DNA of 64,000 nt from a virus (lineage: Duplodnaviria; Heunggongvirae; Uroviricota; Caudoviricetes), in the IMG/VR virus record IMGVR_UViG_3300035660_000003, positions 22,261 through 86,260 of that record. One strand, written 5' to 3'. This document shows positions 47,359 to 49,416 of this stretch, piece by piece (position 1 is the stretch's first letter; each line of letters begins with the position of its first letter). The position numbers were made by a program, and so were the translations under genes. The notes beneath the pieces are model-generated. The model was not told the DNA's origin, did not search any database, and saw only the letters and a list, made by a program, of their open reading frames with translations.

Positions 47359-48154
47359 TAGTTTTCCCTCTAAATTTTATTGCGAAAATATGCTTCGGCT
47401 CTTTCTTGACCCAACGACGGTCCCACCATCTTTTTCCACGTCTCGTAGTCCCGAAGCCTTTTGTCATTCCTATATATTTCCAATTGTCAGCATAATAAAT
47501 ACTACCCATGCGGGGGGGTTCAACAAAAGTGATTAATCCCCGAAGTTTGCCACCATATTTCTCTTCATAGTCTCTTTGGATTGCGATTCGAAATGATTTC
47601 AATGTCATAGTCGCTAAATTCTTGTCTGGCACAACAATTCGAAAGACCTCATTATTCATGATTTCAAGAAGTTTATCCGACCTATTTTCCTTGTTTATAT
47701 TAAAGTAATTATCAATTGGTTTTACGGAATATGGTGCAGAGTTTCCGCCGATGATTCCTACGATTTTGCCCTTCCAGATGACTATATAATTGATTGACCG
47801 TCCGACTATGCCTTTGCTGTTTGGATAATGAGTGAGATAAAGCGTGGCGAAGATTTTGTTGCCTTTTGGCACTTGAAGGAGACAGGGATATTTATAGGAT
47901 TGCGGAATCATATAGGTTTGAGCTAGGGCTGATTTTAACTCGTCCTCGGTTTTGAATGCAACCATGCCTGAGTTTCCTATTCCACTTTGCTCGGCGATTT
48001 CATCTGGATTCTTGCCTAACCGTTTAATGAAGCATTCCTTGCAGTAGTATTTTCCCCAGACACCATACTTGCCTTTCGCACCGCATTCACAAGTTTTAGT
48101 TCGTCTGGCAATAGAGCCGAAATGTTTTCCCTTCTGAGCATATTCATCAGTCAT
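47333..48154 (-). CDS. hypothetical protein with N-terminal CxxC
   Basis: 273-aa ORF. Confidence 0.6.
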   Translation of the reverse strand: MTDEYAQKGKHFGSIARRTKTCECGAKGKYGVWGKYYCKECFIKRLGKNPDEIAEQSGIGNSGMVAFKTEDELKSALAQTYMIPQSYKYPCLLQVPKGNKIFATLYLTHYPNSKGIVGRSINYIVIWKGKIVGIIGGNSAPYSVKPIDNYFNINKENRSDKLLEIMNNEVFRIVVPDKNLATMTLKSFRIAIQRDYEEKYGGKLRGLITFVEPPRMGSIYYADNWKYIGMTKGFGTTRRGKRWWDRRWVKKEPKHIFAIKFRGKTNDSILVYG

Positions 48155-48417
48155 ATGAGTATCACCTTTACTTTCTTTTGTTTCAAAAACTTTTCAAACA
48201 CGGGAGTTTCGCTATAAATTCCCTTCAGACTTCCCCTTGGAAATCGTTTCGCCTTCAATTCAATCCATTCATCAAAACATTTTTTGCATAAAGCAATTGC
48301 AGTAAGTTTATTTCGCATTATTAGAACTCTATATTTTCCATGATTTTCGTTACATCTCTCACATAAACTTTTAGGCACTTTATATGTATAAACTGCTGAC
48401 TTTAACATCGGTTTCAT
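48151..48417 (-). CDS. KVKV-tail family Zn-ribbon protein (KVKVILI)
   Basis: junction AAGAAAGTAAAGGTGATACTCATATGA. Confidence 0.65.
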   Translation of the reverse strand: MKPMLKSAVYTYKVPKSLCERCNENHGKYRVLIMRNKLTAIALCKKCFDEWIELKAKRFPRGSLKGIYSETPVFEKFLKQKKVKVILI

Positions 48418-48797
48418 ATTAACATCACTTTGACCTTTTCCTTTGATTTGTAATTATAAACATATGTCCATTTATAGCAAATTGCTCTAATTTCGACTAT
48501 TCCAGTTCCTTGATAGTCATCGAATTTTATTGTTTGTATTCGAGCATTTAAAAGTTTTATAAATCGAGGAAAATTTAAAGAGTGAGGACTATTGGTTTCT
48601 ATAATAATATCAAATTCTTCTCCTTTGTCAAATATTTCATAGGCAACATTCACTTTATCGGTCACTATTTTAATTGTGCCCTCATCACAAGTATAAACTG
48701 ATTTCACTAAATCGACTTCTTGAACAACGATTGGAATCACTTTACAATGGTTAGCAGTCCTGATTATTGTTGCATTATGAATAAGACTAATATTCAT
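48414..48797 (-). CDS. KVKV-tail family protein (KVKVMLI)
   Basis: 127 aa. Confidence 0.6.
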   Translation of the reverse strand: MNISLIHNATIIRTANHCKVIPIVVQEVDLVKSVYTCDEGTIKIVTDKVNVAYEIFDKGEEFDIIIETNSPHSLNFPRFIKLLNARIQTIKFDDYQGTGIVEIRAICYKWTYVYNYKSKEKVKVMLI

Positions 48798-49075
48798 ATA
48801 AGTATCACCTTTACTTTTGGTTTTTTAATCCGATAGAAATATGAACATCCATCACAGGCTCGTCCTAAATCGCAAATTCTTGTTCCATCATTTAAGCACT
48901 CCAAAATCGTGACTCGGCATCCCTTTTGAAAACTATATTTTTGTATGCATTCAATACTACAGAAGTTATAATCATTTCCATTAACTGCACAATGAAATCC
49001 ATTGATAGCATTATTTCCACATCTGAGACAGCCAACGTAAGTAGTCTTAAAAGTCCCTGTAATTGTTCGACTCAT
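48794..49075 (-). CDS. KVKV-tail family Cys-rich protein (KVKVILI)
   Basis: Cys-rich. Confidence 0.65.
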   Translation of the reverse strand: MSRTITGTFKTTYVGCLRCGNNAINGFHCAVNGNDYNFCSIECIQKYSFQKGCRVTILECLNDGTRICDLGRACDGCSYFYRIKKPKVKVILI

Positions 49076-49416
49076 ATTAATATCACCTTAATTTTTACTT
49101 TTCTCTTTCCACATTTCCATTTTGAAAAAGGAATCCATTCGCCACCGAGATAAAGATAAATTTCGTAATATTCATCCCAATCCCTATATTTTATCCCGAA
49201 AAATTGACAACCGCAGTCTCGGCATTCAACATAATTTAAATGAATGGTTAATCTATGGGATTTACAAAGTATGCATTGAGAAAACTTAACATCCAGAATA
49301 TCGGCTGTTTTTATTTTATTATTCTGAAAAGCATTCCAAGCATCTCTATTATGATTTGGCATTGGATTGTAACCCAAACCAAACGGCAAACTCATTTGTT
49401 TAAAACCTCTTTCCAA
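49072..49416 (-). CDS. KVKV-tail family Zn-ribbon protein (KIKVILI)
   Basis: CxxC pairs. Confidence 0.65.
   Translation of the reverse strand: MERGFKQMSLPFGLGYNPMPNHNRDAWNAFQNNKIKTADILDVKFSQCILCKSHRLTIHLNYVECRDCGCQFFGIKYRDWDEYYEIYLYLGGEWIPFSKWKCGKRKVKIKVILI

What the first reader, a model, noticed from the sequence alone, without database searches (positions are those of the whole stretch)
48151..49416. A 24-nt junction cassette encodes the KVKVILI tail plus stop for one gene and the SD plus start for the next
Between consecutive array genes the minus strand reads AAG GTn AAR GTG ATn YTn ATA TGA, for example AAGAAAGTAAAGGTGATACTCATATGA at 48151. This one stretch gives the upstream protein K-V-K-V-I-L-I-stop. 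It also gives the downstream gene an AAGGTGAT Shine-Dalgarno site about 8 nt before an ATG that overlaps the TGA (ATGA). The same sequence is reused at about 30 junctions and looks like a portable coupling cassette. Array-terminal genes with no downstream partner keep the peptide while the GGTGAT decays (17847 KVKVVLV encoded AAAGTAAAAGTTGTTTTAGTT; 32653 KVKVILY with AAGGTCAT). This argues the peptide itself is also under selection.
Basis: partly seen in the sequence, partly recalled or inferred. Interest (0 to 1): 0.8.

Follow-up and report, generated by a model that had tools for sequence, protein, structure and literature searches.

The report
Shared protein tail doubling as restart signal
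In an uncultured, probably archaeal, tailed virus about 40 mostly unrelated small genes all end in the same seven amino acids (K-V-K-V-I-L-I), and the codons for that tail also spell the ribosome-binding site and overlapping start codon of the next gene, so one 24-base stretch is selected both as a protein tag and as a translation restart signal.

Summary
On the minus strand, 38 small ORFs (42-135 aa) end in [K][V/I][K/R]V[I/M/V/L]L[I/V/Y]-stop; there are none on the plus strand.

- **Internal genes.** In 32 of them the next ORF starts 4 nt (once 1 nt) before the end of the stop codon (ATGA or TTGA, once TAATG). There Val(-4) is GTG in 32/32 cases, against 18% of Val codons elsewhere. Lys(-5) is mostly AAG, giving AAGGTGAT 6 nt before the start, and the stop is TGA in 31/32.
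- **Terminal genes.** In the 6 genes with no downstream partner the peptide is kept, but GTG becomes GTT, GTC or GTA in 5/6 and stops are mixed (3 TAA, 2 TGA, 1 TAG).
- **Peptide-level selection.** Leu(-2) and Lys(-7) use codons at background frequencies. In 26 orthologue pairs Leu(-2) shows 19 synonymous and 0 non-synonymous changes.
- **Not duplication.** The protein bodies are mostly unrelated.
- **Modularity.** Related contigs differ by whole-gene insertions bounded exactly by the junction.
- **Lineage-specific tails.** Homologues in more distant contigs carry other shared tails (…WRIA, …KVIFT) that also embed an SD.

The restart mechanism is ordinary termination-reinitiation. The lineage-specific shared tail is new, and its function (probably a docking tag) is only inferred.

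The parts
49072..49395 (-). Tail gene (107 aa from the ATG that overlaps the TGA of the DruA-like gene; the longest ORF starts at TTG 49416). Ends KIKVILI-stop, with junction 49072-49095 AAA ATT AAG GTG ATA TTA ATA TGA.
48794..49075 (-). Tail gene (93 aa, Cys-rich). Ends KVKVILI-stop; its ATG overlaps the previous TGA (ATGA).
   Evidence: orthologues at 82-85% identity in L009, L011 and L014
48414..48797 (-). Tail gene (127 aa, no Cys motif, with no clear relative outside this virus group). Ends KVKVMLI-stop.
48151..48417 (-). Tail gene (88 aa, zinc-ribbon subfamily). Ends KVKVILI-stop. In the AlphaFold2 model the tail residues 83-88 are unstructured (pLDDT below 50).
48151..48174 (-). Example 24-nt junction: AAA GTA AAG GTG ATA CTC ATA TGA. 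It encodes K V K V I L I stop, contains the SD AAGGTGAT, has a 6-nt spacer, and the ATG of the 273-aa DruA-like gene (47333-48154) overlaps the TGA.
   Evidence: related contigs carry insertions exactly here
50057..50726 (-). Array of 3 tail genes (KVKVILI, KIKVILV, KVKVILI), followed by a tail-less DruA-like gene (49392-50060).
36123..36670 (-). Array of 2 tail genes. The gene at 36263-36670 has homologues in other lineages that end in different tails or in none.
32653..34063 (-). Array of 6 tail genes. The last one (32653-32865) is terminal: KVKVILY, with GTC in place of GTG.
29881..31465 (-). Array of 6 tail genes. It includes one TAATG junction at 30452. The last gene (29881-30090) is terminal: KVKVPLY, GTT, TAA.
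   Evidence: terminal orthologues in L003 and L012 also use GTT and TAA
28737..29516 (-). Array of 4 tail genes. The last one (28737-28964) is terminal: IVKVILI, AAA GTT … ATC TAA.
26839..27428 (-). Array of 2 tail genes. The last one is terminal (NIKVMLI, TAG stop) and is the only terminal gene that still has GTG.
17847..20287 (-). Array of 9 tail genes plus one tail-less gene (18838-19011). The last gene (17847-18050) is terminal: KVKVVLV, AAA GTT, TAA.
17325..17720 (-). Terminal tail gene (KVKVLLI, AAA GTA). Its 3' part has been replaced relative to the L013 orthologue.
16828..16851 (-). Orphan tail (GEKVKVILI-stop, AAG GTG ATT CTA ATT TGA) with no ORF upstream. It is 93% identical over 40 nt to the true tail of the orthologue in L013.
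41839..42150 (-). Solitary variant tail gene (NVKVKLV-stop, AAG GTG, ATGA overlap with a 46-aa ORF).

Best explanation
The window comes from an uncultured tailed virus whose host is probably an archaeon. Its accessory regions hold operon-like arrays of small, mostly unrelated genes, many of them zinc ribbons. Each gene ends in the heptapeptide K-[V/I]-[K/R]-V-x-L-[I/V/Y]-COOH.

Two layers of selection act on the same 24 nt.

**Layer 1, RNA (shown by codon statistics; the mechanism is inferred).** When another gene follows, the codons for Lys(-5), Val(-4) and Ile/Met(-3) are fixed as AAG GTG AT-. This forms the SD AAGGTGAT 6 nt upstream of a start codon. That start codon is made from the last base of the final sense codon plus the TG of a TGA stop (ATGA or TTGA). 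This is the classical arrangement for translational coupling by termination-reinitiation. The synonymous third base of the last codon (A or T) decides whether the next gene starts with ATG or TTG.

**Layer 2, protein (shown by synonymous versus non-synonymous patterns; the function is inferred).** The peptide is kept by purifying selection that does not depend on the SD. It sits behind a Lys/Pro-rich linker and is predicted to be unstructured. Its invariant hydrophobic residues (V-6, V-4, L-2) alternate with outward-facing positions, like a strand that docks by beta-augmentation. It is specific to the virus lineage rather than to the protein family, because homologues in other lineages end in …WRIA, …KVIFT or nothing. 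I therefore read it as a short C-terminal address or docking tag recognised in trans by one co-evolving partner, which remains unidentified.

**Consequence (shown by comparison with relatives).** Each gene runs from its start codon to its tail and carries the restart signal for whatever follows it. The genes are therefore plug-compatible units, and related genomes differ by insertion, loss and relocation of whole units at these junctions.
For: **Counts and chance**
- Searches give the counts and chance expectations summarised in the observation check.

**RNA layer**
- GTG at Val(-4): 32/32 internal versus 1/6 terminal (Fisher p = 1.2e-5). The background is 18% of Val codons (p = 2e-24).
- AAG at Lys(-5): 20/27 against a background of 25% (p = 1e-7).
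- TGA stop: 31/32 internal, against a TAA-rich background.
- In relatives, GTG is used at 41/42 internal junctions. Tails followed by TAA or TAG with no downstream gene use GTT.
- (A/G)AGGTGA(T) lies 4-7 nt upstream of non-array starts as well.
- Junctions show no stable RNA structure (z-scores -1.3 to +0.4), so occlusion of the ribosome-binding site by structure is unlikely.
- Termination-reinitiation at ATGA or TGATG overlaps with an intragenic SD has been demonstrated in Haloferax volcanii and E. coli (PMC6728339, read).

**Protein layer**
- Codon use at Lys(-7) and Leu(-2) equals the background.
- In 26 orthologue pairs Leu(-2) shows 19 synonymous and 0 non-synonymous changes, and Val(-4) shows 25 unchanged, 1 synonymous and 0 non-synonymous.
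- Orthologues that switch between internal and terminal positions are recoded synonymously. The gene at 29089-28961 has AAG GTG … GTT TGA; its terminal orthologue in L003 has AAA GTT … ATC TAA.
- Codon identity is 34% for random pairs, 37% for neighbours and 52% for orthologues, so neighbouring junctions are not being homogenised. The linker is 25% Lys against 11% in the bodies.
- The AlphaFold2 model leaves the tail free, with pLDDT below 50.

**Bodies are unrelated**
- Only 9 of 40 candidate proteins compared cluster at E < 1e-3.
- A zinc-ribbon subfamily of 12 shares about 30% identity at most.
- The 27 other tail proteins gave no significant Pfam or PHROG family.

**Lineage-specific tails**
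-.

**Modularity**
-.

**Host**
- An L10e-type uL16 homologue whose 60 best matches among solved structures are all archaeal or eukaryotic uL16/L10e.
- A Topo VI-A/Spo11 Toprim domain.
- No excess of sigma-70 promoters or intrinsic terminators.
- A related 3-kb contig binned in an archaeal MAG.
- Tail completion/Neck1 and tail-protein hits.
Against: - Nothing here measures translation, so coupling is inferred from anatomy.
- No receptor for the tail was found. The one candidate tested, an HtrA-like protease at 59269-60141, has no room for a PDZ domain.
- In all three tail 'dialects' the conserved peptide coincides with the SD-spacer-stop stretch. That would also be expected if the constraint were on translation rather than on the finished protein.
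- The AlphaFold2 model rests on only 18 sequences.
- The host domain is inferred from gene content and one binned contig, not from a CRISPR spacer or an isolate.
- The …WRIA and …KVIFT tails were each seen in arrays on very few contigs: L026 and its near-duplicate L027 from one sample for …WRIA, and L028 for …KVIFT (single tails also turned up in L037 and L038).
Confidence: 0.72

Rival explanations
1. The peptide is a passenger. What is conserved is a nucleotide cassette (SD + spacer + overlapping stop/start) that spreads and is homogenised by duplication, recombination or gene conversion among junctions. Each lineage drifts to its own consensus by concerted evolution.
For: - The conserved stretch coincides with the SD-to-stop region in all three tail types.
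- Each lineage has its own consensus.
- Units are exchanged at junctions.
Against: - Variation is confined to synonymous sites. Leu(-2) uses all six codons at background frequencies, and orthologues show 19 synonymous and 0 non-synonymous changes.
- Terminal genes lose GTG and TGA but keep the amino acids.
- Neighbouring junctions are no more alike (37% codon identity) than random pairs (34%), while orthologues share 52%.
- Non-tail junctions use other spacers.
Confidence: 0.08
2. The tail acts in cis on the ribosome. As the last residues of the nascent chain it tunes release at the stop codon and retention of the ribosome, so that reinitiation at the overlapping start is efficient. Each lineage has its own solution for its host's ribosome, which may be modified by the virus's uL16 homologue.
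For: - Tails always co-occur with overlap junctions, in three chemically different forms.
- The virus encodes a conserved L10e-type uL16 homologue. In ribosomes, uL16 lies near the peptidyl-transferase centre; this last point is my own knowledge, and the gene itself is.
Against: - Genes that have stayed terminal across diverged relatives keep the peptide.
- Up to 23 overlapping junctions in the same genome have unrelated C-termini.
- Position -3 tolerates I, M, V, L, K, E, A, P and T, as expected for a solvent-facing position of a docked strand.
Confidence: 0.1
3. The tail is a built-in C-terminal degradation signal. Its hydrophobic C-terminus would be recognised by a host AAA+ protease or the proteasome, or by the viral HtrA-like protease, making these accessory proteins short-lived.
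For: - The tail is a free, hydrophobic extreme C-terminus behind a flexible basic linker.
- A conserved HtrA-like serine protease is encoded nearby.
- Hydrophobic C-terminal tags act as degrons in bacteria and destabilise reporters in haloarchaea (my own knowledge, not checked here).
Against: - Degrons are usually loosely defined, whereas here V-6, V-4 and L-2 are near-invariant and each lineage has a sharply different tail.
- The viral protease has no PDZ-like C-terminal peptide-binding domain.
Confidence: 0.12
4. The arrays are one tandemly duplicated paralogue family that has diverged everywhere except in a conserved C-terminal family motif.
For: - A zinc-ribbon subfamily of about 12 members with a CxxC…CxxC…W pattern exists.
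- Many other members are Cys-rich.
Against: - Most bodies show no detectable similarity, and several have no cysteines at all.
- Homologues of two families (36263-36670 and 50281-50508) in other lineages carry different tails or none. The tail therefore follows the genome, not the family.
Confidence: 0.04

Closest known systems
Translational coupling by termination-reinitiation at overlapping gene pairs (ATGA/TGATG) with an SD inside the upstream gene (Huber et al. 2019, PMC6728339)
   Same: - Co-directional genes with a 4-nt (once 1-nt) stop/start overlap.
- A strong SD inside the last codons of the upstream gene at canonical spacing.
- The SD is used mainly where a gene follows.
   Different: - Here the same junction is repeated at 32 places.
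- It is superimposed on an amino-acid motif that is itself conserved. Known coupled pairs have unrelated C-termini, as do up to 23 other junctions in this window.
Mobile regulatory cassettes (promoter-early stem-loops, PeSLs) flanking small early ORFs in the plastic regions of T4-type phages (Arbiol et al. 2010; recalled, not read here)
   Same: - Short conserved expression signals at the boundaries of many small, unrelated accessory genes.
- Relatives differ by whole-gene units exchanged at these boundaries.
   Different: - PeSLs are intergenic promoters with hairpins that act on transcription.
- This cassette is coding, has no hairpin and acts on translation.
Shared terminal targeting peptides on otherwise unrelated proteins: the N-terminal capsid targeting sequence of T4 internal proteins, and the C-terminal cargo-loading peptides of encapsulin cargo (recalled, not read here)
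   Same: - A short conserved terminal peptide behind a flexible linker on diverse small proteins.
- The peptide is specific to the system rather than to the protein family.
- Encapsulin shells and tailed-virus capsids share the HK97 fold.
   Different: - No receptor, packaging or cleavage is shown here.
- The sequence is unrelated.
- The number of tagged genes (at least 38 in 64 kb) is much larger.
- None of those systems also encodes a ribosome-binding site in the tag.
ssrA-like hydrophobic C-terminal degrons
   Same: A non-polar extreme C-terminus on a flexible extension.
   Different: - The tail is encoded in the genome, not added by tmRNA (no tmRNA gene was found).
- It is far more sharply conserved and is lineage-specific.

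Membership tests
Termination-reinitiation coupling junction | Co-directional genes whose stop and start codons overlap (-4 or -1) | tested here: met
   31 junctions are (A/T)TGA and 1 is TAATG, each with a downstream ORF of at least 35 codons.
Termination-reinitiation coupling junction | SD motif in the 3' end of the upstream gene at functional spacing | tested here: met
   AAGGTG(AT) lies 6 nt before the start. GTG is used in 32/32 internal junctions against a background of 18% of Val codons. The same SD type occurs at non-array genes.
Termination-reinitiation coupling junction | Downstream translation depends on translation of the upstream gene | not testable with these tools
   This needs reporter constructs with premature stops, or ribosome profiling.
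Recent tandem duplication / single paralogue family | Similarity extends into the gene bodies and flanks | tested here: not met
   Only 9 of 40 proteins cluster at E < 1e-3, and identities are about 30% or less. Information content is at background outside the 24 nt.
T4-type mobile regulatory cassettes (PeSL) | Intergenic promoter plus stem-loop | tested here: not met
   The cassette lies inside coding sequence. Junctions show no structure (z-scores -1.3 to +0.4) and there is no excess of promoters.
T4-type mobile regulatory cassettes (PeSL) | Indel and shuffling breakpoints between relatives coincide with the cassette | tested here: met
   One-unit (L005) and two-unit (L011) insertions are bounded by junction copies. 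A homologue of the gene at 33501-33800 sits in a different array in L005.
Terminal targeting or cargo-loading peptide | Short conserved terminal peptide on otherwise unrelated proteins, separated from the fold by a flexible linker | tested here: met
   (linker rich in K and P). The AlphaFold2 tail has pLDDT below 50. Homologues in other lineages lack this tail.
Terminal targeting or cargo-loading peptide | A defined receptor (capsid interior, portal, protease) and physical delivery | not testable with these tools
   The capsid genes lie outside the window and complexes cannot be predicted here. The HtrA-like protease lacks a PDZ domain.
ssrA-type degron | Tag added by tmRNA | tested here: not met
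   The tail is encoded in each gene, and ARAGORN finds no tmRNA gene.
Programmed frameshift or readthrough site | Slippery heptamer or stimulatory RNA structure at the junction | tested here: not met
   The junctions contain no X XXY YYZ motif and no structure.

The most novel reading that the evidence does not exclude
These archaeal viruses use lineage-specific C-terminal 'zip codes' (KVKVILI, WRIA, KVIFT). The zip codes route dozens of unrelated small effector proteins to one co-evolving receptor. One possibility is the inside of the HK97-type capsid, for co-injection, as with T4 internal proteins or encapsulin cargo. The zip code has been shaped so that its codons also form the ribosome restart signal for the next gene. 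Together these features make every accessory gene a self-contained, plug-and-play module for both expression and delivery.
Probability: 0.3. Interest if true: 0.85.

Novelty: new variant of a known kind. Interest (0 to 1): 0.72.

Why it matters
This is an unusually clean natural example of one short sequence under two independent selective pressures, one on the RNA and one on the protein. The two can be separated because the same genes occur with and without a downstream partner.

If the tail is an address tag, it would reveal an unknown sorting or docking system in archaeal viruses. It would also mark a set of about 40 candidate host-takeover or anti-defence proteins per genome in one step.

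The standardised gene ends suggest how viral accessory regions can gain and lose genes without breaking expression. They also offer a design rule for synthetic operons in SD-using archaea.

A full-text search for the peptide found no paper.

Tried and rejected
- **Cultured relatives.** blastn and tblastn of window segments and large proteins against cultured phage records gave no relatives or only short domain hits.
- **Exact-sequence look-ups.** Three of the look-ups found nothing: two window proteins and P0004, the window's own shorter gene call.
- **IMG/VR.** The junction pattern gave only two chance hits in 8-codon ORFs. Protein-seeded scans found no relatives. Patterns for the WRIA and KVIFT tails gave only single, mostly chance matches.
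- **GTDB genomes.** Of 8 hits, 7 are chance matches and one (L020) is a real relative.
- **PDZ-receptor idea.** Rejected. The viral HtrA-like protease aligns with a protease domain up to about residue 250 of 290, which leaves no room for a PDZ domain.
- **RNA-level explanations.** Rejected. Rfam finds no family and the junctions are not structured.
- **Frameshift or readthrough fusion of neighbouring genes.** Rejected, because there is no slippery site.
- **Concerted evolution.** Rejected on codon-identity comparisons.
- **Known domains.** The 27 tail proteins outside the zinc-ribbon subfamily gave no significant Pfam or PHROG family: two weak single-member Pfam DUF hits (best E = 4e-4) and no PHROG hit.
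- **Exhaustive search with the gene at 48414-48797.** It found only its orthologue.
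Full report
**1. The observation**

The minus strand between 48151 and 49416 holds four consecutive small genes. They end in KIKVILI, KVKVILI, KVKVMLI and KVKVILI, and each is followed by TGA overlapping an ATG.

Across the window:
- A strict peptide pattern is found 28 times on the minus strand and never on the plus strand.
- A relaxed reading gives 38 tail genes of 42-135 aa, in eight arrays plus one solitary gene, and one orphan tail.
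- The nucleotide pattern AARGTGNTNYTNRTWTGA occurs 23 times, against 0.01 expected.
- The heptapeptide is always directly followed by a stop (29/29).
- Aligned on the stop codon, information content is high only in the 24 nt AAR RTN AAR GTG NTN YTN RTW TGA. It falls to background on both sides.

**2. Not recent duplication**

- With the tails removed, only 9 of 40 candidate proteins cluster at E < 1e-3.
- A zinc-ribbon subfamily of about 12 members shares about 30% identity at most.
- Several tail proteins have no cysteines at all.
- The 27 tail proteins outside that subfamily gave no significant Pfam or PHROG family.
- The gene at 48414-48797 has no clear relative outside this virus group, even in an exhaustive search of 1.8 billion representatives.

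**3. Two layers of selection**

I classed a tail gene as internal if an ORF of at least 35 codons starts at the overlap. This gave 32 internal genes (19 with ATG and 13 with TTG starts) and 6 terminal genes.

| Position | Internal genes | Terminal genes | Background | Test |
|---|---|---|---|---|
| Val(-4) = GTG | 32/32 | 1/6 | 18% of Val codons | p = 2e-24 vs background; Fisher p = 1.2e-5 |
| Lys(-5) = AAG | 20/27 | 2/6 | 25% | p = 1e-7 vs background |
| Stop = TGA | 31/32 | 2/6 | 6/25 large genes (15 use TAA) | not tested |

The third base of the last sense codon is A or T at every 4-nt overlap, which makes ATG or TTG. It is C only at the single TAATG junction and in one terminal gene.

By contrast, some positions show no nucleotide-level constraint while the amino acids are conserved:
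- Lys(-7) codon use matches the background (p = 0.15).
- Leu(-2) uses all six codons at background frequencies (p = 0.44).

In 26 orthologue pairs between the window and related contigs:
- Leu(-2) shows 19 synonymous and 0 non-synonymous differences.
- Val(-4) shows 25 unchanged, 1 synonymous and 0 non-synonymous.
- Tail identity is 82% against 67% for the bodies.

The peptide-only state is stable. The terminal gene at 29881-30090 and its orthologues in L003 and L012 all keep KVKV(P/L)LY with GTT and TAA.

One orthologue pair also serves as a natural experiment. The gene at 29089-28961 is internal and reads AAG GTG … GTT TGA. Its orthologue in L003 (79% identical) is terminal and reads AAA GTT … ATC TAA.

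Pooled over the window and its relatives, GTG is used at 73/74 internal junctions.

**4. Alternatives to peptide-level selection**

- *Concerted evolution.* Codon identity is 34% for random pairs, 37% for neighbours and 52% for orthologues. Tails therefore descend with their genes and are not homogenised.
- *RNA structure.* Eight junctions fold no better than shuffled sequences, and Rfam finds nothing.
- *Requirement for coupling.* Up to 23 other overlapping junctions in the window, a few probably spurious ORF pairs, have unrelated C-termini and other SD-like spellings. The coupling does not need the peptide.

**5. What the tail looks like as protein**

- An AlphaFold2 model of the gene at 48151-48417 (18-sequence alignment, mean pLDDT 70) shows a zinc-ribbon hairpin plus two helices. 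The last six residues are unstructured, with pLDDT below 50.
- The six residues before the tail are enriched in Lys (25% against 11%) and Pro (7.5% against 3.4%).
- The invariant residues V(-6), V(-4) and L(-2) alternate with positions that are charged (-7, -5) or freely variable (-3: I, M, V, L, K, E, A, P, T). This is the pattern of a strand that docks with one hydrophobic face.

**6. Relatives and modularity**

Homology searches and a metagenome scan with the junction pattern recovered related contigs from several samples: L003, L005, L008-L015 and L017. All carry arrays of tail genes.

Backbone genes are mostly about 60-93% identical at the protein level, yet the arrays are mosaics. Between the orthologues of 48151-48417 and the DruA-like gene at 47333-48154:
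- L005 has one extra unit. It is a homologue of the gene at 33501-33800, which sits in another array in the window.
- L011 has two extra units.
- DNA homology stops and resumes exactly in the 24-nt junction, which flanks the insertions as a direct repeat.

**7. Other tail types**

Homologues of the 135-aa protein at 36263-36670 vary with distance:
- At 75-79% identity they end GK(E/P)KVKVILI.
- More distant ones end …PPWRIA, …RFIFT, …KEKVLFT, or have no such tail.

In their contigs the neighbouring genes share the same local tail.
- **L026.** 7 of 19 small genes end (E/P/D)WRIA, encoded TGG AGG ATN GCN TAA TG. This spells the SD GGAGGAT with a TAATG overlap, and Ala uses all four codons.
  - Arg is AGG in 4/5 genes with a start codon at or just after the stop.
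  - Arg is AGA, followed by a TAG stop, in 2/2 terminal genes.
- **L028.** 3/3 genes end EKV(I/L)FT, encoded AAG GTG ATT TTT ACA TGA.
- A second family (50281-50508) also has a WRIA-tailed homologue in L026.

The tail is therefore a house style of the genome, not part of a protein's own fold. Each house style embeds the SD.

**8. What the element is**

- *Tailed virus.* A tail completion/Neck1 hit and weak virion and tail-protein hits.
- *Probably an archaeal host.*
  - An L10e-type uL16 homologue whose 60 best matches among solved structures are all archaeal or eukaryotic uL16/L10e.
  - A Topo VI-A/Spo11 Toprim domain and a KaiC-like ATPase.
  - No excess of sigma-70 promoters or intrinsic terminators.
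  - RGTTTATAAG boxes that resemble TATA elements upstream of operons.
  - A 3.1-kb relative binned in an 'uncultured archaeon' MAG.
- *No cultured relative*.

**9. Mechanism**

The RNA layer has the known anatomy of termination-reinitiation coupling. That mechanism has been demonstrated in Haloferax volcanii and E. coli, where the SD contributes to a variable degree (PMC6728339). Here it is inferred, not measured.

The protein layer is best explained as a C-terminal tag recognised in trans by a partner that co-evolves with the lineage. The receptor is unknown. A PDZ-bearing protease was considered and rejected. A degron role and a cis effect on termination remain possible but fit the data less well.

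**10. Novelty**

Coupling through an SD inside the upstream gene is ordinary. What I could not find described is a sharply conserved, lineage-specific heptapeptide shared by about 40 unrelated proteins and co-encoded with that signal. A full-text search for the peptide found no paper. The closest analogues are listed in the comparison section.

Noticed in passing
window 51444-52073 (-): The virus encodes a homologue of ribosomal protein uL16 of the archaeal/eukaryotic L10e type (Pfam Ribosomal_L16, E = 9e-20, above the curated cut-off). All 60 best matches among solved structures are archaeal or eukaryotic uL16/L10e. The gene is conserved at 80-88% identity in relatives L005, L009 and L011.
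   Followed up: partly
window, 31 sites, e.g. 16696-16711, 17770-17785, 20313-20328, 29563-29578, 32587-32602, 34097-34112, 56446-56461: The 16-bp palindrome TTAATCA[AG/AC/AT][T]TGATTAA (usually within AGATTAATCAATTGATTAATC) occurs 31 times against 0.08 expected. Nearly all copies lie in gaps between ORFs, at the ends and starts of the tail-gene arrays. It is probably an operator for a regulator of these operons.
   Followed up: partly
window 16955-17344 (+), with 17325-17720 (-) and 16825-16864: A 129-aa ORF on the opposite strand carries an HNH-like motif (CxxC…H…N…CxxCH…H). It lies in a roughly 600-bp segment that replaced the 3' part of the tail gene at 17325-17720. The gene's ancestral tail, 93% identical to the L013 orthologue, is stranded downstream. 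This looks like a homing-endonuclease insertion that brought a new 3' end with its own tail.
   Followed up: partly
window 49392-50060 (-) and 47333-48154 (-): Two proteins with the Druantia DruA domain (Pfam PF14236, E = 3.5e-22 and 4e-15) sit inside or at the end of tail-gene arrays and lack the tail themselves. They may be decoys or antagonists of a host defence system.
   Followed up: no
L026 (JGI 3300009034, Ga0115863_1030460) 1431-5848; L028 (Logan SRR22387873) 2-1034; L029: More distant contigs use other shared C-terminal tails that also embed an SD and an overlapping stop/start. These are (E/P/D)WRIA, encoded TGG AGG ATN GCN TAA TG (7 of 19 genes in L026), and EKV(I/L)FT, encoded AAG GTG ATT TTT ACA TGA (3 of 3 genes in L028).
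   Followed up: partly
window 56424-56433, 52579-52588, 42156-42165, 34063-34072, 31496-31505, 29547-29556, 23250-23259, 22080-22089 (-): RGTTTATAAG boxes lie upstream of several operon first genes and resemble archaeal TATA elements. The enrichment is modest (15 matches against 8 expected).
   Followed up: partly
window 52592-54208 (-): A 538-aa protein with a Topo VI-A/Spo11 Toprim domain is conserved at 79-93% identity in relatives. It has no match among cultured phages.
   Followed up: no
L037 (IMGVR_UViG_3300021426_000004) 1076-1357, 1266-1772, 10717-10941: In an unrelated 148-kb viral contig found by chance, three ORFs end in (D/K)(E/L)LPF-stop. This may be another shared C-terminal motif.
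   Followed up: no
window 18838-19011 (-): One gene inside the 17847-20287 array lacks the tail (it ends KPKLDYLV). Its L013 orthologue ends IPKLDYVV, so the exception is conserved.
   Followed up: no
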